Origin: an uncultured bacterium
Lineage (GTDB): Bacteria > Bacillota_I > Bacilli_A > RF39 > UBA660
DNA length: 64,000 nucleotides
Direction: 5' to 3'
NCBI GenBank assembly: GCA_947169285.1
Contig: CAMVPB010000003.1
Coordinates: forward strand, 7,867 to 71,866
Part shown: positions 1-60,261 of the stretch, piece by piece
Layout: the number at the start of each line of letters is the position of its first letter
How positions within the stretch are numbered: position 1 is the first letter of the stretch
Notes under the pieces: generated by a model
What the model was told of the DNA's origin: nothing
Database searches by the model: none
Seen by the model: the letters and a program-made list of their open reading frames with translations, nothing else
Position numbers and translations under genes: made by a program

Positions 1-683
1 CAACCAGAAGCTTAAAACTTATGAGAAAGTTTTATTTATTTCAAAAAGGGCAAGCAGCGCCTGCCCAATTGACATGGAGTCACTACATAGAACTTTTACC
101 AATTAAAGATAATAATAAAATTAATTATTATATTAATGTTACTATCAATCAAAAAATATCATATAGAGAACTTAGAAGAAGAATCAAATCTAATGAATAT
201 GAAAGATTAAGTGATAAAACTAAAAATAAACTAATTAACAGAGAGAATATATCTATTAAAGATAATTTATTAAATCCAATTATTATTAATTCCAATAATA
301 AAGATATTGATATATTTAATGAAAAGGCATTAAAAGAATTAATATTAAATGATATTGAAAGTTTTATGAAGCAACTAGGTAATGGATATTCTTTTATAAG
401 TAGTGAATATTCTATTCTACTTGGTGATAGATATAATTATATAGATTTATTATTATTTAATATTAACTTTAATTGTTATGTTGTTATTGAATTAAAAGTT
501 ACTGAACTCAAAAAAGAACATATTGGTCAAATACAAACCTATATGAATTATATTGATTCTAATGTTAAATCTATTTATCAAGGTAATACTATTGGAATTA
601 TTATTTGTAAAAAAGATAATAAATTTGTTATGGAGTATTGTTCTGATGAAAGAGTTTTAAGAACTACTTATCAGTTAAATTAA
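1..683 (+). CDS. YhcG-like PD-(D/E)XK nuclease (DUF1016 family), 5' partial at the window edge; paralog copy A
   Basis: The frame is open from position 3 and the first Met is at 21. The C-terminal 200 aa are nearly identical to the ORFs at 54590..55486 and 59362..60261. A D...ELK PD-(D/E)XK-like core is present (VVIELKVTELKKEHIGQIQTY). Confidence 0.6.
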   Translation, partial: TRSLKLMRKFYLFQKGQAAPAQLTWSHYIELLPIKDNNKINYYINVTINQKISYRELRRRIKSNEYERLSDKTKNKLINRENISIKDNLLNPIIINSNNKDIDIFNEKALKELILNDIESFMKQLGNGYSFISSEYSILLGDRYNYIDLLLFNINFNCYVVIELKVTELKKEHIGQIQTYMNYIDSNVKSIYQGNTIGIIICKKDNKFVMEYCSDERVLRTTYQLN

Positions 684-9874: not shown

Positions 9875-10220
9875 AATAATTTTAATAAGCCATATTTTGT
9901 ACCATAAAGGTGACAAACATTTATCTAAGGTTTCCCTTCCTTTACTCAGTTTAATTCCCTCGTAAAAGTTCCCCTACCAAATTTGGGTTTCTCGCTCGCG
10001 GGGTTTACGTCGTTCCACTTCCTTATCCCTAAGGATATCGTCACTATAGCACTTTTATATCTACTTTAATCAGGTCTTGATTATTTCGAAGCCGTAAAGC
10101 AAAGCTTTCCTAGAGTTATTTTTTTCTCTAGCACGAACACTACTGCCATTTCAGGACAGTGCGAGTATGGACTTTCCTCTACATAAAATCTTATGCAGCG
10201 TTTGTCTAAAAATTATTATT
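9875..10220 (-). ncRNA. rnpB: RNase P RNA, Bacillus type (type B)
   Basis: The minus strand reads ...CGCUGCAUAAGAUUUUAUGUAGAGGAAAGUCCAUACUCGCAC ... GUAGUGUUCGUGCUAGAG ... GUGGAACGACGUAAACCCCGCGAGCGAGAAACCCAAAUUUGGUAGGGGAAC ... GGUACAAAAUAUGGCUUAU. This tracks B. subtilis rnpB closely. P1 can form between AAUAAUUUUUA and UAAAAUUAUU. It is adjacent to gpsB as in B. subtilis, and the region has locally raised GC. Confidence 0.9.
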
Positions 10221-11675: not shown

Positions 11676-12380
11676 TTATTTATCTTCATAATCATCTATC
11701 TTTAATTTTAATGATTGAATTTCAACAAAATTAATGCCATTCATTAAATCTATATATCCATATCTACAATTATATGTGCCATCGTTCAATCTTTCACCAT
11801 TATATTCAACATAGTATAATCTATTATTGACAATTATTGGTTTAGTTGGCAATAAAGCGTTTTCCACAAAAACTCTTGAAGTTGCCTTAGTCGATAAAAC
11901 CTCCCTACCTTCACTGTAAATCCTTAAAGCTGCAACATAATCATGTTCACTTATTGTTACATAATAATTACCAATTTTATAAAGATTAATTTTAGAAGTT
12001 CTATCATTATAGTCAGTAGTATTTATAGAAACTTCATTATTTATTGTTAATTTTATTAAATTACATTTTGATTCATAATTTTCACAATCATACTTATATA
12101 AATTTCCATCTTTGTTGTAAGTCAAATTCTTAAAATTTTCATTTACTTTTCCTTCTGGTAATAATTCTAGTAAGTCATTTAATAAAAATTCCGCCCCACC
12201 ATTTTGTGGAAATTTTAATATTTCAGCAGTTGTAGGTTGATCAACTGAATTATCAGGTGTACTTGGTTTCTCTTCTCCTTTAAAATGATTTACTCCAAAC
12301 CACACACCAAAACCCACTAAACATGTTCCAACTATTGTTAACAATATAATTACTATAGTTGGCATTCTTTTTTCTTCCAT
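11676..12380 (-). CDS. N-terminally membrane-anchored extracytoplasmic protein, paralog 1 of the gene at 23413..24114
   Basis: N-terminus MEEKRMPTIVIILLTIVGTCLVGFGVWFGVNHFKGEEKP is about 70% identical to the N-terminus of the 23413..24114 product; the remainder has diverged. Confidence 0.6.
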   Translation of the reverse strand: MEEKRMPTIVIILLTIVGTCLVGFGVWFGVNHFKGEEKPSTPDNSVDQPTTAEILKFPQNGGAEFLLNDLLELLPEGKVNENFKNLTYNKDGNLYKYDCENYESKCNLIKLTINNEVSINTTDYNDRTSKINLYKIGNYYVTISEHDYVAALRIYSEGREVLSTKATSRVFVENALLPTKPIIVNNRLYYVEYNGERLNDGTYNCRYGYIDLMNGINFVEIQSLKLKIDDYEDK

Positions 12381-12602
12381 ATTTATACCTCTTTTCTATT
12401 ATCTAATATACCACATTTATTATTATTATATTTTACACACTTTACATTTACAGTGTAGAATATTAAATTTAGTATATATTTAATATTTAATAATTTATAA
12501 TTTAAAAACACATATAATAGAAATTAAATTATATGTGTTTTATATACTTATAAATCTTAAAAGAACTCATTTGCATCACTAGACTCACTATGTTAATATG
12601 TC

Positions 12603-12681
12603 TTTGACGTGCTTAAAAAGTGTTAGAGCCCAAATTCATTTGGAATGCATCTAATATCTTTAGAGCACGTCCTTTTTTATT
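12603..12681 (+). ncRNA. Copy 1 of a structured repeat element, the ORF-less variant; predicted about 80-nt RNA with paired 5' and 3' ends and a T-run
   Basis: Upstream TTGCAT-17-TAATAT promoter. The 5' arm gacgtgct pairs with the 3' arm agcacgtc, followed by a T6 run. A convergent minus-strand extended -10 (TGATAAAAT) lies at about 12708..12716. Confidence 0.45.
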
Positions 12682-12721
12682 ATATGAAGTTCCCTTCATC
12701 TATATACATTTTATCAAATAT

Positions 12722-21659: not shown

Positions 21660-21800
21660 TATCCTCCTTTTTTGATTAATAAAGAAAAAGCTTTCCCAAG
21701 GGAAAGCTTATAAACGTTCTATAAGATTTCACCTCGGTAGGATTTATGTTTGTACCTACTGTCTTTGGGGACTTCTTTTCTTCATCGCTTTAGATTATAT
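21660..21800 (-). promoter_or_regulatory. Putative L10 (rplJ) leader autoregulatory RNA region
   Basis: Structured 5' UTR upstream of rplJ. It is locally GC-richer, with stems such as gctttcccttgggaaagc. The position matches the Firmicute L10 leader, but the structure was not verified. Confidence 0.35.
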
Positions 21801-23412: not shown

Positions 23413-24114
23413 TTATTCTATTTCTTTATATTTAGTAATTACCCAATTACCATCAACTTTTTCAAAAGTAGCATTAAAGTATTCTAATAATTCAGAAACT
23501 TCAACATCCCATTCATTTATACTTTTAACTATAATTCTTGTTTCAGCCTTATTATTATTTAAACTAATAATATTCACTTTACTACTTTCGTATCCATAAA
23601 GCCATCCTTTAGAATCAAGTTTACAATAAAGTTTCCCATCTTTTACATAATAGTTTTCCTTACCAATGTTTGAATGACGATTTATGACAGCTATTGACAT
23701 ATATTTTTTTAAATAATCTAAAAGTTCATCATATGATTTAAATTGTTTAGAAATTGCCGCATCATCATTAGGATTATCAATATCTTCTACTACTTGTAAT
23801 TCACCTTCTCCACAATATGTAGTCTCAAGAAAAAAAACATAGACAAATTTATGTATCTTACTAAATTCCGAAACCAACGCATCATTTTCAATATAATTTT
23901 CAGGTTCTTTAATATCATCGCAAGAATTATTTTCTACTTTGTTTGTTTCTGAATTTAAAGATTGCTCTACATTGCTTGATGGTTGTTCTACTGGTTTTTC
24001 TTCTCCTTTAAAATAATTTACTCCATACCATACACAAAATCCTACTAAACATATACCAATTATTGTAAGTATTACTATCAGTATTGGTGACATTCCTTTT
24101 TTCTTTTCTTCCAT
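23413..24114 (-). CDS. N-terminally membrane-anchored extracytoplasmic protein, paralog 2
   Basis: N-terminus MEEKKKGMSPILIVILTIIGICLVGFCVWYGVNYFKGEEKP is conserved with the 11676..12380 product. Confidence 0.6.
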   Translation of the reverse strand: MEEKKKGMSPILIVILTIIGICLVGFCVWYGVNYFKGEEKPVEQPSSNVEQSLNSETNKVENNSCDDIKEPENYIENDALVSEFSKIHKFVYVFFLETTYCGEGELQVVEDIDNPNDDAAISKQFKSYDELLDYLKKYMSIAVINRHSNIGKENYYVKDGKLYCKLDSKGWLYGYESSKVNIISLNNNKAETRIIVKSINEWDVEVSELLEYFNATFEKVDGNWVITKYKEIE

Positions 24115-24353
24115 ATTTTTTATTCACTCCTTTTCGTAAATCATTATACTGTATATATATATATATATATCAATTGCATTATTTATAATTTACATTTTAC
24201 ATTTACATTGTAAATTATTAAAATTTATATATCTTTAATATTTTATAAAACAAAATAAAAAAATACATATAATAAAAATTAAATTATATGTATTTTTTAT
24301 ACCATTAAAACTCAAAAGTATTGATTTGCATCCCAAAACTCTCCATGTTAATA

Positions 24354-24592
24354 TGTCTTAGACACACCTTAATAGATGTTAGTCGTGTGCTTCCTTATTC
24401 TATAAAAATAAGGGAGGTGATATGCATGAATAAAAGAGAAAAATCTTATTATTTCATAATTATCCTCTTGTTTATATTGATATTTATAGTATTAATATTT
24501 AAATAAAAATCACACTAACATCAAAACGATGTTAGTGTGTGACCTCAATGGGAAGCACACCTACTCTTTAAGGTGTGTCCTTTTTTATTTTA
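24354..24592 (+). ncRNA. Copy 2 of the structured repeat element: predicted mRNA with paired 5' and 3' ends carrying a small hydrophobic-peptide ORF
   Basis: TTGCAT-17-TAATAT promoter. Helix P1 is gacacaccttaa (24361-24372) with ttaaggtgtgtc (24569-24580), followed by a T6 run. Helix P2 is gtgtgcttcc with ggaagcacac. An inner hairpin cacactaacatc/gatgttagtgtg acts as a minus-strand terminator (it is followed by a T-run on that strand). A convergent minus-strand extended -10 TGGTATAAT lies at 24615-24623. Confidence 0.5.
24426..24506 (+). CDS. 26-aa ultra-hydrophobic peptide (MNKREKSYYFIIILLFILIFIVLIFK), candidate type I toxin-like small protein
   Basis: Strong SD AAGGGAGGTGA 8 nt upstream. 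A single TM-like segment is followed by a C-terminal Lys. It is conserved as a 24-aa ORF at 40730..40804 (MNKREFSFFIIIIILLIIIYKILF). Confidence 0.5.
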   Translation: MNKREKSYYFIIILLFILIFIVLIFK

Positions 24593-24647
24593 TGAAGTTT
24601 CCTTCAATAAATACATTATACCATTTTTTATATTAGATATACAAGTA

Positions 24648-32587: not shown

Positions 32588-34504
32588 TTAAATATTAGAT
32601 ATTTTTTTCTTTTGAGTTAAGAAATAAGCTATTCCTCCAAATGTAACAATGATCAATAATATTCCTCCAACTTCAAATACACCCGTTTTTGGATTAGTAT
32701 TATCACCTTCTTTAACATATATTACCGTTATATAGTGGTCTTCCGATACATCTTCAAATGTATATTGAGTTTCATTACCTTCTGTGGAAATACTTTCACC
32801 ATCTATTTTAATTTCAGATAATTTATATCCTTCATTAGGTGAATATTCAATTGTTTTATCACTTCCCTCAGTAACAACGTCAGAATCAGTTATATTACCA
32901 TAATAAACTTCAGTTATTATTACATATTCATTCTCATTTGTAGGTGTTTCTTCCGAATTCGCTAATACTGTTATTTTTGAAGTTGCAGATTTATTACCAT
33001 CTATAGTTGTAACTGTTATTGTTGCTGTTCCAGGAGAAATTCCTGTAACAACTCCATTTGCATTAACTGTCGCAACTGACGTATCACTACTTGTCCAAAC
33101 AACATTCTTATTAGTTGCATTAGTTGGCGTAACTATTGCCTCTAATTCCTTTGTATCACCCACCTGCATTTTCCAAGTTGATGGCGTTAACACTATTCCT
33201 GTTACACTAACTGTACTGCTTCCACTTGAAGTCCATTGCGCATATACAGTCATATTTGAACTAGCTATTGATGAAGATGTAACTTTTGTTCCACTTCCAT
33301 TCTTTTTTGTGTTCCATTCTTTGAATGTATATCCACTTCTTGTTGGTGTACATAATGTTCCCCATTTGCTTCCAGAGGTTGCTGTTTTTGTAGTTGGACT
33401 ACATGCATTACCACCATTAACATTGTATGTTAGTGTATACTCTACCGTTGTTGGTGATGTAGGACCAGTTGTAGATGAACTTGAACTTCCCGTATTAGCT
33501 TCAAGAACTTCTATTGCTACACTATCAGAGCAGTCATCAGTATCAGTACAACTTGCATCATTAGTTTTAATACTTATTGTTGCTACACCTGGTGATTTTG
33601 CCCTAACTACACCAGTACTTGAAACAGTTGCAATACCACTTGCATCAGTTGAAAAAGTTACGTTTTTGTTTGTCGCATAATTCGGATAAATATTATAAAG
33701 CAAAGGATACTCTTGACCAACTCGCATTTGTATGTGATCTGATTCACTAGCGAATCGTATACGTATTACAGGAATATAGAATATAAATACAGACCCTCCG
33801 CTGTCTTCACACGCAGTTTCGCATGCTGTCCTACTTGTTATATTTTCTTCTTCCCAATACCCAAACTGATTACTATAACACCAACAACCAGTTTCAGATG
33901 CTGAAGGTTCCTGATATGAACTTGAACTTCCCGTATTAGCTTCAAGAACTTCTATTGCTACACTATCAGAGCAGTCATCAGTATCAGTACAACTTGCATC
34001 ATTAGTTTTAATACTTATTGTTGCTACACCTGGTGATTTTGCCCTAACTACACCAGTACTTGAAACAGTTGCAATACCACTTGCATCAGTTGAAAAAGTT
34101 ACGTTTTTGTTTGTCGCATTGCTTGGAGAAATACTATAAAGCAAAGTATACTCTTGACCAACTCGCATTTGTATGTGATCTGATCCACTAGTGAATCGTA
34201 TACGTGTTACAGAAATGGTTGAAGACGTTGAGGAAGAAGATGATGCTGTTGGTTCAACAAAAGACTCAAATGTTAAGCCAAGGTTTTCACATGCACTTTT
34301 GCAAGCACCTAGGCTACTATAACCAGATCCTATAGAAGTTATTGCTCCGTTTTCATTACAAGAGCAAATCCATGTGCTTGTGTCTACCACAGACATACTT
34401 TTTTGTACAGTTATGTTTTTAGCAAATATTGCTGCTACTATAACTGTAAATCCACATAAAATTGGTATTAAAAACATTTTAAAAGCTTTTTTATTATCAT
34501 TCAT
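32588..34504 (-). CDS. Large surface protein with Big_2 domains, two Cys-rich modules, an exact internal repeat of about 100 aa, a Flg_new (Listeria-Bacteroides repeat) domain and a C-terminal TM anchor
   Basis: Signal peptide. Repeated module IRF(T/A)S(G/E)SDHIQMRVGQEY...NKNVTFSTDASGIATVSSTGVVRAKSPGVATISIKTNDASCTDTDDCSD. Flg_new pattern YTLTYNVNGG...GYTFKEWNTKKNGSGT. Big_2 VVWTSSDTSVATVNANGVVTGISPG. C-terminal TM. Confidence 0.75.
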   Translation of the reverse strand: MNDNKKAFKMFLIPILCGFTVIVAAIFAKNITVQKSMSVVDTSTWICSCNENGAITSIGSGYSSLGACKSACENLGLTFESFVEPTASSSSSTSSTISVTRIRFTSGSDHIQMRVGQEYTLLYSISPSNATNKNVTFSTDASGIATVSSTGVVRAKSPGVATISIKTNDASCTDTDDCSDSVAIEVLEANTGSSSSYQEPSASETGCWCYSNQFGYWEEENITSRTACETACEDSGGSVFIFYIPVIRIRFASESDHIQMRVGQEYPLLYNIYPNYATNKNVTFSTDASGIATVSSTGVVRAKSPGVATISIKTNDASCTDTDDCSDSVAIEVLEANTGSSSSSTTGPTSPTTVEYTLTYNVNGGNACSPTTKTATSGSKWGTLCTPTRSGYTFKEWNTKKNGSGTKVTSSSIASSNMTVYAQWTSSGSSTVSVTGIVLTPSTWKMQVGDTKELEAIVTPTNATNKNVVWTSSDTSVATVNANGVVTGISPGTATITVTTIDGNKSATSKITVLANSEETPTNENEYVIITEVYYGNITDSDVVTEGSDKTIEYSPNEGYKLSEIKIDGESISTEGNETQYTFEDVSEDHYITVIYVKEGDNTNPKTGVFEVGGILLIIVTFGGIAYFLTQKKKISNI

Positions 34505-39055: not shown

Positions 39056-40261
39056 CTATTTAATAACAACTTTCTTAAATTGTTTTTTACCTTTTTGAAC
39101 AAGTATTCCACCATCTTTAATAAATGATAAATCTATAATAGTTTTTGGATCACTTATTTTATCACCATTTATACTAATAGCATTTTGTTCAACCATACGT
39201 CTTGCTTCACTCTTAGATGGGAACATCTCAGTAAGCATTAAGAAATCAACAATTGAAATATTAAGATCGCTATGTACTTCAATGGTTTCAGTACTTTCTC
39301 CCATTCCTCTTGACGCAAAGATTTCTTCACTTTCTTTTTTAACTTTTATAGCTTCTTCTTCACCATGTAAATCCTTAATTATTTCATAAGCCAAAGTTTT
39401 TTGAGCAAGTCTTTTTTCTGGTTCGGTTTTAACACTTTCTTCTAATGATTCAATTTCTTCTCTAGTTAAGAAAGTAAATACTTTTAAATACTCAATAACT
39501 TTAGAATCATCTGTATTTAATAAATATTGGTACATTTTGTATGGACTTGTTTTTTCTTTATCAAGCCATAAGGCATTACCTTCACTTTTACCAAATTTAT
39601 TTCCATTTGCATCTAAAATAAGAGGCATAGTAAATCCATAAGCTTCTTTACCTAATTTTTTCTTTATCAATTCTATTCCTGTAGTAATGTTACCCCATTG
39701 ATCTGAACCTTCTACTTGCATAATACAATTCTCTCTTTGAAATAATTCTAAAAAATCATTTCCTTGAATTAATGTGTATGAGAATTCTGCATATGTTATA
39801 CCTGTTTCAAGTCTTCTTTTAATGATATCTTTATTAAGCATATAATTAACGTTTATATATTTTCCTATATCTCTTAAAAAATTTAAATATGAAACATCTT
39901 TAGTCCAATCATAATTATCAACCAATTTAGCTTTACCTTCAAATATTTTATTAATTTGATTTCTTATTCCTTCTATGTTATTTCTAACTGTCTCATAACT
40001 TATAATTTCTCTTTCAGCTGTTGGTCTTGGATCACCTATTAAACCAGTTGCCCCACCACATAATAGTATTGGCTTGTGTCCGTGACGAGCAAGTCTTTTG
40101 GCAGTTACTAGTGATGAATAATGTCCCAAATGAAGACTATCAGCAGTTGGATCCGTACCCCAATAAAATGTTACCTTCTCTTCATTTAATAATCTTTCAA
40201 TTTCAGGACTACTTATATCTTTTATTAGTCCTCTCCATTTCAACTCTTCAAAAAAATTCAT
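39056..40261 (-). CDS. tyrS: Tyrosine--tRNA ligase
   Basis: GTDPTADSLHLGHYSSL HIGH region, KFGKS motif, C-terminal S4 domain; 401 aa. Confidence 0.93.
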   Translation of the reverse strand: MNFFEELKWRGLIKDISSPEIERLLNEEKVTFYWGTDPTADSLHLGHYSSLVTAKRLARHGHKPILLCGGATGLIGDPRPTAEREIISYETVRNNIEGIRNQINKIFEGKAKLVDNYDWTKDVSYLNFLRDIGKYINVNYMLNKDIIKRRLETGITYAEFSYTLIQGNDFLELFQRENCIMQVEGSDQWGNITTGIELIKKKLGKEAYGFTMPLILDANGNKFGKSEGNALWLDKEKTSPYKMYQYLLNTDDSKVIEYLKVFTFLTREEIESLEESVKTEPEKRLAQKTLAYEIIKDLHGEEEAIKVKKESEEIFASRGMGESTETIEVHSDLNISIVDFLMLTEMFPSKSEARRMVEQNAISINGDKISDPKTIIDLSFIKDGGILVQKGKKQFKKVVIK

Positions 40262-40264
40262 ATA

Positions 40265-40500
40265 ATATTTCTCTCCTTTTAAAGCAAAAAAATGGTATCA
40301 AAGAAAGTCACAAGGACGGTACCATTTCTCAATTTCACTCTAATGTTTTATAGCTCATCAGCTTTATAAACTCATAATATCGTAATTCATTAAAGATATC
40401 TGCTTATTTACACCGACCATAAACTCTCTTTAAAAAATATTCTTTAACTACTAAAATATTAATCAACATTTATTTCAAAATTATTTTAACATAGAGATAA
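40265..40500 (-). promoter_or_regulatory. Putative T-box leader (tyrosine specifier) upstream of tyrS
   Basis: The minus strand has AAAUGGUACCGUCC, resembling the T-box GGUGGUACCGCG core. A candidate UAC specifier lies in ...AAUUACGAU... . A hairpin plus U7 run sits just before the tyrS SD. Gene context supports it; the full fold was not verified. Confidence 0.5.
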
Positions 40501-40662
40501 TAAAATATCAATAAGTTAAAATTGTGAATTCAGACACACAATTCATTTTCAATTGACAATATTCAATATTTACATATTAGTTTTAATTAATATTTGCATC
40601 AATTGCCAAAGAGCAAAAAGCAATTTTTAATAATTTGAACTATAAAATTTATTGTGATAATA

Positions 40663-40886
40663 TGTCTAAGACATGCTTAAAAAGTGTTAGTGCATTCCTT
40701 TAAACCAAATATTTAAAGGAGGTGATTTTATGAATAAAAGAGAATTTTCTTTTTTTATAATTATTATCATCTTGCTTATTATAATATACAAAATATTATT
40801 TTAAACAAAACGCTCTAACACCTAGGTGTTAGAGCAGCCCAAGATTGGAATGCATCTAATATCTTTAGAGCATGTCCTTTTTATTA
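40663..40886 (+). ncRNA. Copy 3 of the structured repeat element with its small ORF
   Basis: TTGAAC-17-TGATAATAT promoter (40636-40664). P1 is gacatgct (40668-75) with agcatgtc (40869-76), followed by a T5 run. P2 is tgcattcc with ggaatgca. A perfect palindrome gctctaacac-ctag-gtgttagagc followed by gTTTTgTTT on the minus strand acts as a minus-strand terminator. A convergent minus-strand extended -10 TGATATAAT lies at 40911-40919. Confidence 0.5.
40730..40804 (+). CDS. 24-aa ultra-hydrophobic peptide (MNKREFSFFIIIIILLIIIYKILF), ortholog of the 24426..24506 ORF
   Basis: SD AAAGGAGGTGA 5 nt upstream. N-terminus MNKRE is conserved with copy 2 and the hydrophobic core is conserved in character. 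Confidence 0.5.
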   Translation: MNKREFSFFIIIIILLIIIYKILF

Positions 40887-40976
40887 TATGAAGTTTCCTT
40901 CAATAAATACATTATATCATTTTTTATATCTTTTGTATACATAACTATTAAGTGTTTAGTAAAAAATAATAATATA

Positions 40977-42407
40977 ATGGATATAAATGAAAATATAAAA
41001 AAACTATATAAATTAAAGAGTAATATGCCTGATTTAGTTATTAGGGAAATTACTGTGCCAAGAAGACAAAAAGTATATGTTTTAGTTATTCAAACATTAA
41101 CTAGTGAAGATAAAGTAAATGATTTTATATTAAAGTATTTTTCTAATAAAGATTTGTTTAAGAATAAAACTAATATTAAAAAATCAATAAGTGAATTTAT
41201 ACCAGCGATTAACTTTCATGAAATAAATAATTATGATGAAATATTAAATTATTTATTTAATGGTTTTACAGTAGTACTATCTAATAAATTTAATGCTTCT
41301 TTTGAAACAAAAGCTTTAATAGATAGAGCTGTATCCGAGTCTTCTTCAGAGCCGTCTGTTAGAGGACCTAAAGATTCATTTAACGAAAATTATCAAACTA
41401 ACATCGGACTTATTAGAAGAAGAATTAAAGATAAAAATTTATATTTAAAAGAAATTGTTCTTGGTAAAAAAAGCAAAACTAGAATTGGAATTATGTATAT
41501 GAATGGTATTGCATCAGATGATTTAATTCATCAAGTGCAAGAAAAATTAAATAACATTGATATAGAATATATATTGGATTCTTATACTATAAAAGAACTC
41601 ATTAAAAAAGAAAATAAAACTTTATTTCCTACAATCGCCTCTAAAGAAAAACCAGATGAAATAAGCGTTGCCCTTTTAAATGGTAAAATTGCAATTATCG
41701 TTGAAAATAGTCCTAATGTACTTTTAATACCTACTCTATTTATTGATTCATTTAAAAATAGTGAAGATTATTATGAAAAATCTTTCTATGCATCTTTTAT
41801 TAGAATAATAAGATTGTTTGCTTTTTTCTTAGCAATTTTTCTTCCTGGATTCTATCTAGCATTAATAACAATTGATCAACAAGTCCTCTCTTCTGATTTA
41901 TTTATAAATTTTGCTTCTCAAAGTGTTGTGGTACCATTTCCATCTGTAATTGAAGCAATACTTTTAACTATTACATTTGAAATACTTTATGAAGGAGATT
42001 CTAGAACTCCCACTTCAAGAGGAGCATCTGTTTCAATACTTGGAGCTCTTATACTAGGTGATGCTGCAGTTAATGCAGGACTTGTATCCCCTATTATGGT
42101 TATAATTATTTCGATATCTTCAATATGTTCGCTTTTATTTATATTTGTAGATTTTCAAGGATCAATTAGGTTTTGGAGATACTTATGTATGATTTTATCA
42201 TCTTTATTTGGACTTATAGGTTTTATAGTAACATTCACTCTACTTTTAATAAACTTGTGTTCTATTAAATCATTTGGAATTCCATATTTAATTCCATATG
42301 TTCCTTTTTATAAAAAAGAAGCTTTAAAAGATGGTGTAATTAGAAGTGAATCAAGTTCATCTAAAATTGATAAAGATTATTTAAGGAGTAATGATGAAAA
42401 AAATTAA
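40977..42407 (+). CDS. Spore germination protein, GerA/GerKA family (A subunit)
   Basis: GerA-family A-subunit architecture with conserved C-terminal TM helices; operon with the C and B subunits. Confidence 0.8.
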   Translation: MDINENIKKLYKLKSNMPDLVIREITVPRRQKVYVLVIQTLTSEDKVNDFILKYFSNKDLFKNKTNIKKSISEFIPAINFHEINNYDEILNYLFNGFTVVLSNKFNASFETKALIDRAVSESSSEPSVRGPKDSFNENYQTNIGLIRRRIKDKNLYLKEIVLGKKSKTRIGIMYMNGIASDDLIHQVQEKLNNIDIEYILDSYTIKELIKKENKTLFPTIASKEKPDEISVALLNGKIAIIVENSPNVLLIPTLFIDSFKNSEDYYEKSFYASFIRIIRLFAFFLAIFLPGFYLALITIDQQVLSSDLFINFASQSVVVPFPSVIEAILLTITFEILYEGDSRTPTSRGASVSILGALILGDAAVNAGLVSPIMVIIISISSICSLLFIFVDFQGSIRFWRYLCMILSSLFGLIGFIVTFTLLLINLCSIKSFGIPYLIPYVPFYKKEALKDGVIRSESSSSKIDKDYLRSNDEKN

Positions 42408-44696: not shown

Positions 44697-46157
44697 TCAT
44701 CCTTGAAGATCACCGGGTTGTATACCAATTTCAGCTCCTGGCCGAATATTAATATTACCAGGTTGAACATTAATTAATTCTCCAGTAACAATATCAGAAG
44801 TATTTACTACTATAACCGGGCGAACCCCGAAGTCGCCACCATACGCGAAGATGTCGAAGATAACACTGCCATCAGAAAACACACTCCACACGCCGCCATT
44901 GCTGTTAGCAGAACCCAACCAATAAGATGTTCCATTAAATACTATTCCATTATTTGAACTTGCTAATGATTGCTCTTCTTCATATGTTAGTAATCTTCCT
45001 GTTCCATTTATTCCTAATCTATTTACATATTCTTCCACATAATACGCTATTGTGTATCCATTATTTTGGGCTAATCCATAACCATTATCATAATTTGATG
45101 ATGGTGCTATATTAGACATACTACTTCTATATACTATTGGATAAGGGGTCCCACTATAACTTGCTCCTCCTGTTGCATATTCGCTCTTTAAGTCTGACGT
45201 TCCTGTACATCCCCAAGATGTACCAGTATACTGACATACACTATCATCCCAATAGTTTGTTCCACTAAATGGCACTACTCCTATATATTGGACATTTGAC
45301 CCACTTATATATCCCTTTGCTGTAATATTTTGTAATCCATAACCTGTATCTGATGATGTTAATGTTTTGTTTAATGAATATGCTGAGCCATTATAATCTA
45401 GTATATCACCTACATATAAGTTATATTTAGCTAGTAATACTGTTTCTGTTGCATTTGTACTTACTACATAGAAGTCTTCTCCTGATATTGTTACTTCTTG
45501 TCCTTGAACAACTCTTGTTGCAGACATCGTTATTACATCCCCTCTATCTAATGTTCCTATTGTTCCTTGATCTGTTTTCAAAGATATTGTTGCTGGTTCA
45601 ACTCCTTCTCCTATATTTATTGTTCCATAGAATTCTTTATTTTGATTATAATTTTGATTTGATCCTGTATCTATAAATGTCACTGTTACTGTATATGTAT
45701 GTGTCTCTCCTGGTTCTATCTCTATATTATTTTTTATTGCTATATTATGTGCTAAAGTTGTTTCTGTTGGTATTACTGTTTCACTTATATTACTACAGCT
45801 TCCTGATGAAGATGAGCAAGTTGCTGATATTACTAATTCATTATTTATTATTTCATTATATAAGTCTCTCCATATGATGTTATAGTATGCTGTTGTATTT
45901 CCATTATTATATACTGTTATTGTCTTTGGTGTACTACTCCATGGTGGTGTTACATTCTCTCCACTTCTTATTTCTATATCTGTATATACTAAACTCATAT
46001 TTGCTGTTGTTAATCTCATTGAACTTGCTGTATCATTACCAGTTATTTGTATTGTGAAATATGCATATGATATTCCTGCGATTGCTACTAAAAATACTAA
46101 CGCAGTTAATACTATTATCTTTATTTTATTACTCTTTGTTAATTCATTTTGTTCCAT
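44697..46157 (-). CDS. TasA/camelysin-like secreted protein with a SipW-cognate class signal peptide
   Basis: N-terminus KIKIIVLTALVFLVAIAGISYAYFTIQITGNDTAS matches the SipW-dependent signal signature (G-[ST]-YAYF-[ST]-D). Confidence 0.55.
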   Translation of the reverse strand: MEQNELTKSNKIKIIVLTALVFLVAIAGISYAYFTIQITGNDTASSMRLTTANMSLVYTDIEIRSGENVTPPWSSTPKTITVYNNGNTTAYYNIIWRDLYNEIINNELVISATCSSSSGSCSNISETVIPTETTLAHNIAIKNNIEIEPGETHTYTVTVTFIDTGSNQNYNQNKEFYGTINIGEGVEPATISLKTDQGTIGTLDRGDVITMSATRVVQGQEVTISGEDFYVVSTNATETVLLAKYNLYVGDILDYNGSAYSLNKTLTSSDTGYGLQNITAKGYISGSNVQYIGVVPFSGTNYWDDSVCQYTGTSWGCTGTSDLKSEYATGGASYSGTPYPIVYRSSMSNIAPSSNYDNGYGLAQNNGYTIAYYVEEYVNRLGINGTGRLLTYEEEQSLASSNNGIVFNGTSYWLGSANSNGGVWSVFSDGSVIFDIFAYGGDFGVRPVIVVNTSDIVTGELINVQPGNINIRPGAEIGIQPGDLQG

Positions 46158-46211
46158 GATAAAAACTCCTTATCTTACAAATAAATGATACTATAAATTT
46201 GGGGTTTTGTA

Positions 46212-46236
46212 AATGATTTTTTAATATAAAAATTCT
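46212..46236 (-). terminator. Rho-independent terminator downstream of the pseudouridine synthase gene
   Basis: On the minus strand ttctaacaaaagttagaa is followed by a T5 run. Confidence 0.45.
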
Positions 46237-54482: not shown

Positions 54483-54589
54483 TGGTATTTTTTCCAACAA
54501 AAAAAGTGTTTTAAATAAAAATTTACGATAATATATGTAGAGGATACTTTGAGTATCTTTTTTTATATTTTAGAAAGGAGGTAAAAATA

Positions 54590-55486
54590 ATGAACTATTA
54601 TGATGAAATAAAAAATATTTTAATTTCTAATGAAGCATACAAACAAGTTAAAGATTATTATAAAAATAGAAATGATTTAATGTCTTATTATAATGTTGGT
54701 AAATTATTATTGAAAGCTGGCAATAAATATGGTGAAAGTATTATTAAAAACTATTCTATTAAATTAACCAAAGAACTTGGTAAAGGTTATTCTTGGAGAA
54801 ATCTTTATAATATGAAAACATTTTACTCATTATTTAAAAATGAAGAAATTTTGCAGACATTGTCTGCAAAATTAGCATGGAGTCATTTTTGTGAACTATT
54901 TAAATTTGAAGATGTTAATAAAATTAATTATTATATTAGTATATCTATTAATCAAAATCTATCAGTTAGAGAACTTAGAAGAAGAATTAAATCAAAAGAA
55001 TATGAAAGATTAAGCGATGAAACTAAAAATAAACTAATTAACAAAGAGAATATATCTATTAAAGATAATTTATTAAATCCAATTATTATTAATTCCAATA
55101 ATAAAGATATTAATATATTTAATGAAAAAATATTAAAAGAATTAATTCTTAATGATATTTCTAGTTTTATGGAACAACTTGGTAATGGTTATTCTTTTAT
55201 AAAAGATGAATACCCTATTTTCTTAGGTGATAGATATAATTATATAGATTTATTATTATTTAATATTAATTTTAATTGTTATGTTTGTATTGAATTAAAA
55301 GTTACTGAACTTAAAAAAGATCATATTGGTCAAATACAAACATATATAAATTATATCGATTCTAATGTTAAATCTATATATCAAGATAAAATTATAGGTA
55401 TTATTATATGTAAAAAAGATAATAAATTTGTTATGGAATATTGTTCTGATGAAAGAATACTTAGAACTACTTACCAGTTAAATTAA
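54590..55486 (+). CDS. YhcG-like PD-(D/E)XK nuclease (DUF1016), paralog copy B
   Basis: 298 aa; the C-terminal half is nearly identical to copies A and C (RELRRRIKSKEYERLSDETKNKLINKENISIKDNLLNPIIINSNNKDI...). Confidence 0.65.
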   Translation: MNYYDEIKNILISNEAYKQVKDYYKNRNDLMSYYNVGKLLLKAGNKYGESIIKNYSIKLTKELGKGYSWRNLYNMKTFYSLFKNEEILQTLSAKLAWSHFCELFKFEDVNKINYYISISINQNLSVRELRRRIKSKEYERLSDETKNKLINKENISIKDNLLNPIIINSNNKDINIFNEKILKELILNDISSFMEQLGNGYSFIKDEYPIFLGDRYNYIDLLLFNINFNCYVCIELKVTELKKDHIGQIQTYINYIDSNVKSIYQDKIIGIIICKKDNKFVMEYCSDERILRTTYQLN

Positions 55487-58959: not shown

Positions 58960-59235
58960 TTAATTTCCTAATCCTTCCCATACTATGTTATTAGAATCAT
59001 TGTATCCATCAGTCCATCCCCATAGACCAGTCCCATATAATTCAAAATCACTTGACGATAATTTTTCTTTTATTGTTACTGAAGTTAATAAATTATTAGA
59101 AAATGCATAATTGCCTATTGATTCGATGCTATTTGGAATTGTTACTGAACTCAAGTAATTATACATAAACGCATTTTCATCTATTGTTCTAACACTATTT
59201 GGAATTACTACTGAAGTTAATGATTTTTCTTCCAT
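58960..59235 (-). pseudogene. Leucine-rich repeat (BspA-type LRR_5) protein fragment; likely a gene remnant driven by a duplicated promoter and leader
   Basis: 91 aa with IPNSV..I...AF LRR_5 repeats. It has no signal peptide and is too short for a functional LRR surface protein. The upstream 70 bp and the Met-Glu start are identical to the TasA-like gene at 46157. Confidence 0.45.
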
Positions 59236-59361
59236 GATAAAAACTCCTTATCTTATAAGTAAATATTACTATAAATTTGGGGTTTTATAAATGATTATTA
59301 TTTTTTTATTCAAAAAAAGTGTTTTGGAAAAAAACTAACGATAATATATATAGGAGGATTT

Positions 59362-60261
59362 ATGAACTACTATAATGAAATAAAAAATATATTAATATCT
59401 AATGAAGCTTATAAACAAGTTAAAGATTATTATAAAAATAGAAATGATTTAATGTCTTATTATAATGTTGGTAAATTGTTAATAGAGGCTCAGGGTGGCG
59501 AAGCAAGAGCTAAATATGGAGATAACTTAATTAAAGAGTATTCTATTAAATTAACAAAAGAATTGGGTAAAGGATATACCGTTAGTGAACTCAAAAGAAT
59601 GAGACAATTCTATGTGTTTCAAAAAGGTGCGACAGTGTCGCACCAATTAACATGGAGCCATTACATAGAGTTATTAAAGTTTAATGACGTTAATAAGATT
59701 AATTATTATATTAATATATCTTCTAATCAAAATCTATCAGTTAGAGAACTTAGAAGAAGAATTAAATCAAATGAATATGAAAGATTAAGTGATAAAACTA
59801 AAAATAAACTAATTAACAGAGAGAATATATCTATTAAAGATAATTTATTAAATCCAATTATTATTAATTCCAATAATAAAGATATTGATGTTTTTAATGA
59901 AAAGGCATTAAAAGAATTTATATTAAATGATATTTCTAATTTTATGAAACAACTTGGTAATGGTTACTCTTTTATAGATAGTGAATACCCTATTCTTTTA
60001 GGTGACAGATATAATTATATTGATTTATTACTTTTTAATTATATTTATAATTGTTTTATAGTTATTGAATTAAAAATAACTGAGCTTAAAAAAGAACATA
60101 TAGGTCAAATAGAGACTTATATGCACTTTATTGATTCTAATGTTAAATCTATATATCAAGATAATACTATTGGTATTATTATTTGTAAAAAAGATAATAA
60201 ATTTGTTATGGAATATTGCTCTGATGAAAGAATACTTAGAACTACTTATGAGTTAAATTAA
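59362..60261 (+). CDS. YhcG-like PD-(D/E)XK nuclease (DUF1016), paralog copy C
   Basis: 299 aa; shares long verbatim stretches with copy A (RELRRRIKSNEYERLSDKTKNKLINRENISIKDNLLNPIIINSNNKDID). Confidence 0.65.
   Translation: MNYYNEIKNILISNEAYKQVKDYYKNRNDLMSYYNVGKLLIEAQGGEARAKYGDNLIKEYSIKLTKELGKGYTVSELKRMRQFYVFQKGATVSHQLTWSHYIELLKFNDVNKINYYINISSNQNLSVRELRRRIKSNEYERLSDKTKNKLINRENISIKDNLLNPIIINSNNKDIDVFNEKALKEFILNDISNFMKQLGNGYSFIDSEYPILLGDRYNYIDLLLFNYIYNCFIVIELKITELKKEHIGQIETYMHFIDSNVKSIYQDNTIGIIICKKDNKFVMEYCSDERILRTTYELN

What the first reader, a model, noticed from the sequence alone, without database searches (positions are those of the whole stretch)
40636..40925. Copy 3 of the module, upstream of the gerA operon and next to the tyrS T-box: same architecture with a diverged 24-aa peptide
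Promoter TTGAAC-17-TGATAATAT. P1 is gacatgct with agcatgtc, followed by T5. P2 is tgcattcc with ggaatgca. SD AAAGGAGGTGA precedes ORF MNKREFSFFIIIIILLIIIYKILF (40730-40804). Immediately 3' of the ORF lies the perfect palindrome gctctaacac-ctag-gtgttagagc, which on the minus strand is followed by gTTTTgTTT (a minus-strand terminator). A minus-strand extended -10 TGATATAAT lies at 40911-40919. The peptide N-terminus MNKRE and its hydrophobic character are conserved with copy 2 while the nucleotides differ, which suggests purifying selection on the peptide. An anti-SD-like CACCT lies in the 3' hairpin (cacctag) and could pair with GGAGGTG; that pairing is inference. Here the element is not part of the larger duplicated locus, which argues it is a discrete unit.
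Basis: partly seen in the sequence, partly recalled or inferred. Interest (0 to 1): 0.75.

Follow-up and report, generated by a model that had tools for sequence, protein, structure and literature searches.

The report
Undescribed type I toxin–antitoxin-like module family

Summary
A covariance model finds exactly three copies in the window.

The unit spans 40635-40939 and belongs to a large family. I recovered 140 copies from gut and rumen metagenomes and from MAGs titled "uncultured Bacilli". Of 120 assessable copies, 97 keep a Shine-Dalgarno sequence plus an ORF (78 distinct peptides, 22-37 aa), with dN/dS 0.31.

The roughly 229-nt sense mRNA pairs its first ~30 nt with its last ~30 nt in all 89 predicted folds. 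Cognate duplexes average -32.6 kcal/mol, against -18.6 for non-cognate pairs. The SD is mostly paired.

On the opposite strand, a sigma-A-type promoter is conserved in 122 distinct flanks. It would drive a ~100-nt three-hairpin RNA complementary to the mRNA 3' UTR, and 16 of its 22 base pairs show compensatory changes.

The family has no Rfam, Pfam, NCBIfam or PADLOC match and no constant protein neighbour.

Best reading: a new family of type I toxin-antitoxin-like modules. Transcription, toxicity and antisense control are inferred, not shown.

The parts
40635..40663 (+). Promoter of the peptide mRNA: -35 TTGAAC (40635-40640), 17-nt spacer, extended -10 TGATAATAT (40655-40663).
   Evidence: Sequence. 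In 37 family members with enough upstream DNA, a TTG...TGnTAnnAT promoter ends 5-7 nt before the first paired nucleotide of the 5'-3' helix. It is below the threshold of the generic scan.
40669..40699 (+). 5' UTR arm of the long-distance helix. It contains P1 (40670-40677), the 5' box GTGTTAGTGC (40684-40693) and P2 (40691-40698). The predicted 5' end of the mRNA is at about 40669-40671.
   Evidence: Duplex with 40846-40877 is -34.6 kcal/mol. The helix is in the MFE fold. Family level.
40696..40725 (+). SD-sequestering hairpin UCCUUUAAA (40696-40704) with UUUAAAGGA (40712-40720), overlapping the SD AAAGGAGGTGA (40715-40725).
   Evidence: -7.1 kcal/mol. Copy 2 has the covarying CUUCCUUAUU/AAUAAGGGAG. 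In the family the SD core is 83% paired.
40730..40804 (+). ORF for the 24-aa peptide MNKREFSFFIIIIILLIIIYKILF: a charged N-terminus followed by one hydrophobic segment.
   Evidence: Family: 78 distinct peptides of 22-37 aa, dN/dS 0.31, third codon position the most variable, stops in the other frames. No Pfam, NCBIfam or PADLOC family.
40802..40835 (-). Intrinsic terminator of the antisense RNA: hairpin 40812-40835 followed on the minus strand by GUUUUGUUUA (40811-40802), which overlaps the stop codon.
   Evidence: Terminator scan. In the family, all 9 pairs of this helix show compensatory changes, and 83 of 88 copies have at least 5 U in the next 9 nt on the minus strand.
40846..40882 (+). 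3'-terminal arm of the long-distance helix (P2' 40847-40854, P1' 40869-40876), then T5 (40878-40882). This is the predicted 3' end of the peptide mRNA.
   Evidence: Across the family this segment folds locally better on the minus strand than on the plus strand (-11.5 against -6.7 kcal/mol, p = 5e-19).
40795..40906 (-). Predicted ~100-nt antisense RNA (candidate antitoxin) with three hairpins: a 5' hairpin UGAAG-GAAA-CUUCA (40902-40889), a middle hairpin and the terminator hairpin. It is fully complementary to the mRNA 3' UTR.
   Evidence: Covariance-model hit of 59.2 bits, E = 7e-10. Fold z = -4.8. Family consensus structure with 16 of 22 pairs compensatory.
40911..40939 (-). Promoter of the antisense RNA: -35 TATACA (40939-40934), 17-nt spacer, extended -10 TGATATAAT (40919-40911).
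   Evidence: Family: TTG at -35 in 98/96/91% of sequences, a 17-nt spacer, then TRTG and TAnnAT, in 122 distinct flanks. All of these except the last two bases of the -10 hexamer lie outside the search pattern. Copy 3 has a weak -35.
24324..24640 (+). Copy 2 of the module. ORF 24426-24506 encodes MNKREKSYYFIIILLFILIFIVLIFK; the antisense RNA lies at 24495-24610 (-).
12569..12702 (+). Copy 1, an ORF-less remnant. A deletion between the 5' box and the identical 3' arm of the post-stop hairpin removed the SD, the ORF and half of the antisense terminator.
   Evidence: 51 bits; not in the model seed. The same kind of deletion is seen in locus L034.

Best explanation
Copy 3 is an intact member of a previously undescribed family of type I toxin-antitoxin-like modules.

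Sense strand. The plus strand makes a ~215-nt mRNA (family median 229 nt) for a 24-aa single-helix membrane peptide. The first ~30 nt of this mRNA pair with its last ~30 nt. The SD is held in a short hairpin stacked on that helix. The full-length transcript is therefore compact, has both ends protected, and should be poorly translatable.

Antisense strand. A constitutive-type promoter makes a ~100-nt three-hairpin RNA that is perfectly complementary to the mRNA 3' UTR, from the T-run back to the stop codon. Because it is complementary to the same 3' segment, this RNA resembles the mRNA's own 5' UTR and would compete with it.

Inferred mechanism:
- Pairing starts at the complementary post-stop and terminator hairpin loops.
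- It spreads through the 3' UTR and yields a long duplex.
- The duplex is cleaved by RNase III and/or locks the SD, so the peptide is made only when the antisense RNA runs short.
- The peptide, when made, damages or depolarises the membrane.

Shown by computation:
- A coding ORF under purifying selection.
- Both promoters conserved.
- Both RNA structures and the 5'-3' helix covarying.
- Predicted SD sequestration.
- Multi-copy, tandem, variable and decaying loci.

Not shown: transcription, toxicity, RNase III involvement, and which conformation is translated.
For: Family size and peptide:
- 97 of 120 assessable copies keep SD plus ORF, with the stop codon 70-112 nt before the anchor motif (accepted range).
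- dN/dS is 0.31 in frame, against 0.61 and 1.21 in the shifted frames. Differences by codon position are 242/154/312. The other frames are closed in 87/87 and 68/87 ORFs.
- The peptides share a net positive N-terminus (70 of 78) and an uncharged run of median 17 residues. 60 of 78 have K/R within the last three residues.

Sense mRNA:
- The 5' UTR by 3'-end duplex averages -32.6 kcal/mol for cognate pairs, -18.6 for non-cognate pairs and -12.6 for shuffled sequences. The cognate partner ranks in the top few for almost all of 81 modules.
- 89 of 89 MFE folds contain the long-distance helix (median 25 bp).
- The SD core is 83% paired, and the start codon is fully paired in 62 of 89.
- There are 64 distinct P1 helices among 89 modules.

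Antisense RNA:
- -35 TTG (98/96/91%), a 17-nt spacer, TRTG and TAnnAT in 122 distinct flanks.
- Consensus of three hairpins: 93.8% of cells paired against 83.8% in shuffles and 27-44% when partners are slid; 16 of 22 pairs have compensatory changes.
- The middle hairpin is more stable on the minus strand in 80 of 88 copies, through G-U pairs that become C-A mismatches on the plus strand.
- A U-rich tail follows the last hairpin.

TA-like population behaviour:
- Tandem arrays of 2-3 copies.
- Three copies in 64 kb here.
- Allele replacement at one locus between strains, and absence from that locus in a relative.
- 23 copies without an intact ORF, whereas none of the 86 profile-matching small ORFs lacks the antisense element (85 carry the consensus 5' hairpin, one a variant).
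- No constant neighbouring protein: 140 Pfam families across 139 flanking ORFs. RNase III genes are present in hosts.

Published hallmarks of type I loci match. These are a non-translatable primary transcript, SD hairpins and 5'-3' long-distance interactions (PMC6733600), and 3'-overlapping ~100-nt antitoxins with RNase III cleavage in Bacilli (PMC6562991, PMC8594479).
Against: - There are no expression data for either strand, no toxicity test and no cultured host.
- All loci were retrieved through a motif in the antisense element, so 'toxin never without antitoxin' is biased.
- The peptides match no known toxin family.
- The plus-strand local terminator hairpin is weak (mean -6.7 kcal/mol), so the mRNA 3' end is uncertain.
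- If the 3' UTR is locked in the long-distance helix, the antisense target is partly hidden. The order of events is unknown.
- In copy 3 the antisense -35 (TATACA) departs from the family TTG.
- A crude whole-RNA test for extra trans pairing of the antisense RNA with the translation initiation region was barely above background (-31.2 against -27.7 non-cognate and -25.0 shuffled).
Confidence: 0.7

Rival explanations
1. The same sense/antisense gene pair, but the peptide is a harmless small membrane protein, for example a modulator of a transporter or sensor. Its level is tuned by a cis-antisense RNA, and the unit is not a toxin-antitoxin module.
For: The coding and antisense evidence does not itself show toxicity. 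The modules sit among housekeeping genes, not on obvious mobile elements.
Against: - There is no constant protein partner or neighbourhood.
- The unit occurs in many diverged paralogous copies and tandem arrays per genome.
- Alleles are replaced and ORF-less remnants arise frequently.
- The layered silencing (5'-3' helix, SD hairpin, full-length antisense) is typical of genes whose product must be kept off (PMC6733600).
Confidence: 0.17
2. The peptide is a precursor of a secreted signal or bacteriocin-like peptide whose gene is controlled by a convergent antisense RNA, as with enterococcal prgQ/Anti-Q (comparison from my own knowledge).
For: The size (22-37 aa), the hydrophobic core and the convergent antisense arrangement resemble pheromone-inhibitor precursors. 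The 30-aa subfamily (…KVLRYISIILLL…) looks signal-peptide-like.
Against: - No receptor, processing, export or immunity genes recur next to the modules.
- The peptides mostly end in K/KK directly after the hydrophobic segment, leaving no mature C-terminal peptide.
- There is no double-glycine or lipobox-type motif, by inspection of the list.
Confidence: 0.05
3. A non-coding repeated palindromic element (REP/MITE-like), or only an sRNA gene, with the ORF incidental.
For: The unit is repeated, rich in inverted repeats and intergenic. Some copies lack the ORF.
Against: - The frame is kept in 97 of 120 copies in 26%-GC DNA.
- dN/dS is 0.31 only in that frame.
- A strong SD sits at the correct spacing.
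- Stops are present in the other frames.
- There are no terminal inverted repeats or target-site duplications. The flanks at tyrS-gerA are continuous with the allele-swapped core.
Confidence: 0.03
4. A cis-acting leader or attenuator for the downstream gerA operon, or an element linked to the tyrS T-box.
For: Position: 72 nt upstream of the gerA start codon, same strand as the ORF, ending in a hairpin plus T-run.
Against: - Copies 1 and 2 lie next to rpoC and nusG with convergent neighbours.
- 139 flanking ORFs elsewhere are unrelated to gerA.
- A relative has gerA without the module.
Confidence: 0.02

Closest known systems
Bacillus subtilis 3'-overlapping type I systems (bsrG/SR4, txpA/RatA, bsrE/SR5, yonT/SR6)
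   Same: - Found in Firmicutes.
- Convergent genes, with a ~100-nt antisense RNA complementary to the 3' part of a short mRNA for a small hydrophobic peptide.
- The SD is partly sequestered.
- First contact is expected between the antitoxin terminator loop and an mRNA loop.
- The duplex is an RNase III substrate (PMC6562991).
   Different: - No sequence or HMM similarity.
- The peptides here are shorter (22-37 aa) and carry the charge at the N-terminus and at the last residue or two, with no charged C-terminal tail (the Bacillus tail is from my own knowledge).
- The antisense RNA stops at the stop codon, so only its U-tail overlaps the ORF.
- The mRNA 5' end pairs with the very segment the antisense RNA targets.
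- The modules are not prophage-linked in the contexts seen.
hok/Sok (E. coli plasmid R1) and aapA/IsoA (Helicobacter)
   Same: - The full-length mRNA is locked by a 5'-3' long-distance interaction into an inert form.
- SD-sequestering hairpins are present.
- Several module-specific chromosomal copies occur (PMC6733600).
   Different: - Those are from Gram-negative bacteria.
- Their antisense RNA pairs with the 5' region or ORF of a 3'-trimmed, activated mRNA.
- Here the antisense RNA covers the 3' UTR itself, so 3' trimming would remove its target.
- No leader ORF is present.
Enterococcus par (fst/RNA II) and Staphylococcus SprA1/SprA1AS
   Same: - Convergent RNAs in Firmicutes.
- The antisense RNA lies 3' of the ORF and does not overlap it (PMC8594479).
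- A 5' stem sequesters the SD (my own knowledge).
   Different: - No match to Fst-type Pfam or NCBIfam models at E <= 1.
- Two separate terminators rather than one shared bidirectional terminator.
- In par and SprA1 the functional pairing lies outside the overlap (PMC8594479). Here a test for such extra pairing was near background.
E. coli Ibs/Sib and ShoB/OhsC toxins
   Same: Peptide size and extreme hydrophobicity: 19-26 aa and I/L-rich (my own knowledge).
   Different: Unrelated sequence, different antisense geometry (PMC8594479) and a different phylum.
Clostridioides difficile type I systems (CD2517.1/RCd8 and relatives)
   Same: A low-GC gut Firmicute with convergent antisense antitoxins (PMC5961336; title and abstract only were read).
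   Different: Those toxins are about 50 aa and the loci lie next to CRISPR arrays or prophages (partly my own knowledge). No similarity was detected here.

Membership tests
Type I toxin-antitoxin systems (class) | A short ORF (under 60 aa) for a hydrophobic, membrane-type peptide with its own SD | tested here: met
   24 aa in copy 3. Family: 78 distinct peptides of 22-37 aa, dN/dS 0.31.
Type I toxin-antitoxin systems (class) | An antisense RNA gene with its own promoter and terminator, complementary to the toxin mRNA | tested here: met
   By sequence only. Conserved -35, TRTG and -10. Three-hairpin structure with 16 of 22 compensatory pairs and a U-tail. Covariance-model hit at 40795-40906. 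Transcription was not observed.
Type I toxin-antitoxin systems (class) | A primary toxin transcript folded so that the SD is occluded (local anti-SD hairpin and/or 5'-3' long-distance interaction) | tested here: met
   Predicted, with covariation support. Definition from PMC6733600.
Type I toxin-antitoxin systems (class) | The peptide is toxic when expressed, and the antisense RNA neutralises it | not testable with these tools
   Needs expression experiments. The only indirect hint is ORF-less remnants without the converse, from a biased sample.
Fst/RNA II, Ldr, Hok, Ibs, TisB, TxpA/BsrG and other named toxin families | The peptide matches the family's Pfam or NCBIfam profile | tested here: not met
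   54 peptides scanned at E <= 1 gave only scattered chance hits to unrelated membrane families (also 21-23).
Rfam antitoxin/sRNA families (RatA, Fst RNA II, Sok, Sib and others) | The RNA matches the family covariance model | tested here: not met
   Nothing relevant at E <= 10 over 40200-41000. Nothing but tRNAs at E <= 1 in 13 diverse loci. Nothing at gathering score in the window.
B. subtilis-type 3'-overlap systems | The antisense RNA overlaps the 3' part of the toxin mRNA over about 100 nt | tested here: met
   The predicted overlap is about 75-80 nt in copy 3, from the T-run at ~40882 back to ~40803. In the family the stop codon lies 70-112 nt before the anchor motif (accepted range). 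Geometry only.
B. subtilis-type 3'-overlap systems | RNase III cleavage of the duplex drives mRNA decay | not testable with these tools
   RNase III genes exist in host contigs. No cleavage data.
hok/Sok- and aapA/IsoA-type systems | The antisense RNA targets the 5' region of a 3'-processed, activated mRNA | tested here: not met
   The antisense gene lies at the 3' UTR. A test for extra pairing with the 5' region was near background.

The most novel reading that the evidence does not exclude
This may be a distinct regulatory design rather than only another type I family. The mRNA 5' UTR and the antisense RNA are sequence mimics that compete for one 3' segment, which also serves as the mRNA's terminator region. 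In that design the antisense RNA acts by evicting the 5' end from a protective long-distance helix.

Two further features fit such a design:
- Each module carries a built-in direct repeat (the 5' box equals the 3' arm of the post-stop hairpin). This repeat has repeatedly excised the toxin ORF, leaving antitoxin-only relics (window copy 1 and L034).
- The sequence-invariant 5' hairpin UGAAGGAAACUUCA would be a docking site for a host factor shared by all alleles.
Probability: 0.25. Interest if true: 0.7.

Novelty: new member of a known kind. Interest (0 to 1): 0.6.

Why it matters
Type I systems are missed by annotation because both genes are tiny. Eight of the ten peptides looked up, including both from this window, are absent from a 15-billion-protein collection, and the two that are present carry no functional name.

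The family appears to be abundant in uncultured, low-GC gut and rumen Bacilli. It offers about 80 natural peptide variants and matching RNA variants. That makes it a ready-made covariation data set for studying how 5'-3' mRNA locking and 3'-antisense control combine in Gram-positive bacteria.

It may also explain contig breaks and hypervariable intergenic cassettes in these MAGs. In addition, it gives a set of very short membrane-active peptides to test.

Tried and rejected
- blastn of the unit against phage and plasmid collections gave only short AT-rich chance hits. The viral-contig pattern scan gave 0 hits.
- Rfam at gathering and permissive thresholds gave nothing. Pfam, NCBIfam and PADLOC on the peptides gave nothing.
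- The search for homologous proteins refuses queries under 40 aa.
- An exact look-up found two of ten peptides, neither with a functional name.
- The look-up of encoding contigs did not find the window's own TyrS.
It occurs in 38 of 90 copies and is weakly associated with AGGTG-type SDs (23 observed; about 16 expected by my calculation from the counts).
- Whole-RNA RNAduplex of the antisense RNA against the 5' UTR and initiation region was uninformative (-31.2 against -27.7 non-cognate and -25.0 shuffled). The first attempt timed out.
- A narrower test did show that the 5' box can pair with the 5' arm of the post-stop hairpin (-12.1 cognate against -7.4 non-cognate). I treat this as an alternative or metastable pairing of unknown role.
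- The gerA-leader, mobile-repeat and pheromone readings were considered and set aside. See the rival explanations.
- The host could not be placed more precisely than 'uncultured Bacilli', from the record titles.
Full report
**Observation**

Plus strand:
- -35 TTGAAC at 40635-40640, a 17-nt spacer, then TGATAATAT at 40655-40663.
- P1: gacatgct 40670-40677 with agcatgtc 40869-40876, followed by T5 at 40878-40882.
- P2: tgcattcc 40691-40698 with ggaatgca 40847-40854.
- SD AAAGGAGGTGA at 40715-40725.
- ORF 40730-40804, MNKREFSFFIIIIILLIIIYKILF.
- Palindrome at 40812-40835.

Minus strand:
- The palindrome is followed by GTTTTGTTTA. The generic scan calls this as the only terminator in the region, against 0.1 expected.
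- TGATATAAT lies at 40911-40919, with TATACA 17 nt upstream.

Context is as stated:
- tyrS at 39056-40261 (-).
- A T-box at 40300-40475 (-), E = 1e-8 but below the Rfam gathering score.
- A GerA/GerC/GerB-type operon from 40977.

Statistics:
- The 225-nt sense RNA folds at -69.2 kcal/mol, z = -8.0.
- The antisense RNA has z = -4.8.

Two caveats apply.
- The plus-strand promoter matches only 8 of 12 consensus positions. Promoter-like hits in this 26%-GC DNA are at chance level, so single-sequence promoter calls mean little on their own.
- The MNKRE codons of copies 2 and 3 are identical in nucleotides.

**Copies in the window**

Repeat finding, alignment and a covariance model agree on exactly three copies:
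- Copy 2, 24324-24640, with ORF MNKREKSYYFIIILLFILIFIVLIFK.
- Copy 3, the finding.
- Copy 1, 12569-12702.

Copy 1 has no ORF. Its sequence jumps from the 5' box GTGTTAGAGC straight into the segment that follows the 3' arm of the post-stop hairpin. This is a deletion between two direct repeats that every module carries.

P1 covaries among the three copies:
- GACATGCT/AGCATGTC.
- GACGTGCT/AGCACGTC.
- GACACACCT/AGGTGTGTC.

**The family**

An exact-pattern scan of one genome per species found 7 loci. All are in MAGs titled 'uncultured Bacilli bacterium', from rabbit and reindeer gut. That gives 140 copies in hand. Phage, plasmid and viral collections gave nothing meaningful.

Of the 120 copies not cut by a contig end:
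- 97 have an SD and an ORF, and the stop codon lies 70-112 nt before the anchor motif (that range was required for acceptance).
- They encode 78 distinct peptides of 22-37 aa (median 27), in several subfamilies.

The peptides share a design rather than a sequence:
- A net positive first eight residues in 70 of 78.
- An uncharged run of median 17 residues.
- K or R within the last three residues in 60 of 78.

Evidence that the ORF codes, pooled over a minimum spanning tree of related ORFs:
- dN/dS is 0.31 in frame, against 0.61 and 1.21 in the shifted frames.
- Third codon positions change most (242/154/312).
- The other frames carry stops in 87/87 and 68/87 ORFs.

The peptide is real.

**The sense RNA**

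In the 37 members with enough upstream DNA, a TTG...TGnTAnnAT promoter ends 5-7 nt before the first nucleotide of P1. P1 and P2 are parts of one long helix between the first ~30 and the last ~30 nt of a ~229-nt transcript.

Evidence for that helix:
- It appears in 89 of 89 MFE folds, with a median of 25 bp.
- It is module-specific. Cognate 5' UTR by 3'-end duplexes average -32.6 kcal/mol, against -18.6 for non-cognate pairs and -12.6 for shuffled sequences. The cognate partner ranks at or near the top for nearly all of 81 modules.
- There are 64 different P1 helices among 89 modules.
- For copy 3 the duplex is -34.6 kcal/mol.

The SD:
- The SD core is on average 83% paired.
- Its partner is an upstream anti-SD in 55 of 89 folds. 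In copy 3 this is UCCUUUAAA/UUUAAAGGA; in copy 2 it is CUUCCUUAUU/AAUAAGGGAG.
- Its partner is the ORF in 32 of 89 folds.
- The start codon is fully paired in 62 of 89.

**The antisense RNA**

I aligned 122 distinct downstream flanks on the last bases of the search pattern. This shows, on the minus strand:
- TTG at -35, in 98, 96 and 91% of sequences at the three positions.
- A 17-nt spacer.
- T-R-T-G, then TAnnAT.

Apart from the last two bases of the -10 hexamer, none of these positions was part of the pattern.

From there a ~100-nt RNA runs back to the stop codon. An alignment of 49 non-redundant sequences gives three hairpins:
- 93.8% of cells are paired, against 83.8% in column shuffles and 27-44% with slid partners.
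- 16 of 22 pairs have compensatory changes.

The strand can be told apart. The middle hairpin is more stable on the minus strand in 80 of 88 modules (-11.5 against -6.7 kcal/mol, p = 5e-19). The reason is that its G-U pairs become C-A mismatches on the plus strand. So this segment is shaped to fold in the antisense RNA. In the mRNA it is shaped to pair with the 5' UTR instead.

The last hairpin is followed by a U-rich tail (at least 5 U of 9 in 83 of 88). In some subfamilies that tail is the complement of the C-terminal lysine codons.

The 5' hairpin UGAAGGAAACUUCA is almost invariant in sequence, even in covariance-model hits that the exact pattern did not select. I cannot explain that.

**Population behaviour**
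- Modules occur in tandem arrays of two or three.
- They lie in unrelated intergenic contexts. 139 flanking ORFs hit 140 different Pfam families. Most are housekeeping, no mobile-element family is among the 25 most frequent listed, and there is no constant partner. RNase III genes are among the neighbours.
- In the window, copies 1 and 2 lie beside rpoC and nusG.

At the tyrS-gerA locus itself:
- Two strains with 96% identical TyrS carry the same allele as the window.
- Two others with 96% identical TyrS have near-identical flanks, but the core is replaced by another allele. That allele encodes MSRKDFPFFVIIILLFALVFIVLLSK and has matching changes in P1.
- A relative with 80% identical TyrS has cysS and a tRNA gene there and no module.

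Twenty-three copies lack an intact ORF. Inspection of these copies shows three kinds of loss:
- A premature stop.
- A lost start codon.
- A 5' truncation, or the same direct-repeat deletion as copy 1. The latter is seen independently in L034.

Conversely, all 86 small ORFs in the held DNA that match the peptide profile are followed by the antisense 5' hairpin; one of them carries a variant form. This asymmetry fits toxin-antitoxin logic. It is biased, however, because all loci were retrieved through the antisense element.

**Mechanism**

Shown by computation:
- A translated small membrane-type peptide gene.
- Two conserved convergent promoters.
- A sense RNA whose two ends pair and whose SD is occluded.
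- A structured antisense RNA fully complementary to the sense 3' UTR.

Inferred:
- The full-length mRNA is stable and poorly translated.
- The antisense RNA first contacts the complementary post-stop hairpin loop, then invades the 3' UTR and displaces the 5' UTR, which it resembles.
- It thereby creates a long duplex for RNase III and/or reinforces SD occlusion.
- The peptide is made and harms the membrane only when antisense RNA is limiting.

These steps follow published behaviour of bsrG/SR4, txpA/RatA and relatives (PMC6562991), and of the 5'-3' locked hok and aapA mRNAs (PMC6733600). Which conformer is translated, and where the mRNA really ends, remain open. The local plus-strand terminator hairpin is weak.

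**Comparison and novelty**

[quoted passage not shown] It fails membership of every named family:
- No Rfam match.
- No Pfam, NCBIfam or PADLOC match for 54 peptides.
- The peptides are almost entirely unannotated.
- Two literature searches of the held library returned no paper whose title or abstract describes such a family, and the T1TAdb paper lists 24 known families in total.

Its geometry combines two things:
- The Gram-positive 3'-overlap arrangement (PMC8594479, PMC6562991).
- The 5'-3' long-distance lock best known from hok and aapA (PMC6733600).

I file it as a new family of a known kind. The competition between the 5' UTR and the antisense RNA for one target, the built-in deletion repeats and the invariant 5' hairpin are possible novelties. 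All three need experiments.

**Verdict**
- Best explanation: a type I toxin-antitoxin-like module, confidence 0.7.
- Interest: 0.6.

Noticed in passing
loci L023, L029, L037, L044, L050, L059, L063, L079, L083, L088, L089, L106, L110, L122, L124: In 16 of 140 module copies a tRNA gene (Glu, Arg, Met, Leu, Thr, Ser or Lys) lies with its midpoint 107-151 nt beyond the anchor motif. It is on the antisense-RNA strand, so its 3' end sits just upstream of the antisense promoter. This may reflect a preferred landing site or a shared flank.
   Followed up: partly
window 40889-40902 and all family members: The antisense RNA's 5' hairpin UGAAGGAAACUUCA is nearly invariant in sequence across all peptide subfamilies. 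This holds even in covariance-model hits not selected by the exact pattern, and the rare variants do not compensate. The cause is unknown; a protein or ribosome contact site is one possibility.
   Followed up: partly
window 12569-12702; locus L034 (second copy, 224 nt from an intact one): The same deletion occurred independently twice. It runs between the 5' box and the identical 3' arm of the post-stop hairpin, and it removes the SD, the ORF and half of the antisense terminator.
   Followed up: yes
window 11676-12380 (-) and 23413-24114 (-): Paralogous 234- and 233-aa proteins with an N-terminal membrane anchor (MEEK...GVW.GVN.FKGEEKP) lie directly beside copies 1 and 2. Only their N-terminal ~40 codons and the upstream region are similar at the DNA level.
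   Followed up: no
window 40300-40475 (-): The tyrS T-box leader scores only 45.5 bits, against the Rfam gathering score of 93. It is therefore missed at default thresholds although E = 1e-8.
   Followed up: no
window 53-352, 54856-55155, 59631-59930; also 54486-54825 / 59299-59612 and 46138-46221 / 59216-59299: A second, unrelated set of repeats: three copies of at least 300 nt at 85-87% identity, plus neighbouring duplicated stretches. Not examined.
   Followed up: no
window 33475-33774 and 33916-34215: A tandem 300-nt repeat at 96% identity with 441-nt spacing, probably a repeat within a gene.
   Followed up: no
window 9881-10213 (-) and 21673-21786 (-): RNase P RNA class B (253 bits) and a ribosomal protein L10 leader (54.6 bits), consistent with a Firmicute host.
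   Followed up: no
loci flanking modules (alignment A5): RNase III genes lie next to the module in 3 loci and ToxN (type III toxin) genes in 2. Otherwise the neighbours are unrelated housekeeping genes.
   Followed up: no
locus L128 (contig end 766 nt upstream of tyrS): A 37.8-kb metagenome contig ends about 70 nt beyond the tyrS-gerA module, inside the 5' end of gerA. The multi-copy unit may break short-read assemblies.
   Followed up: no
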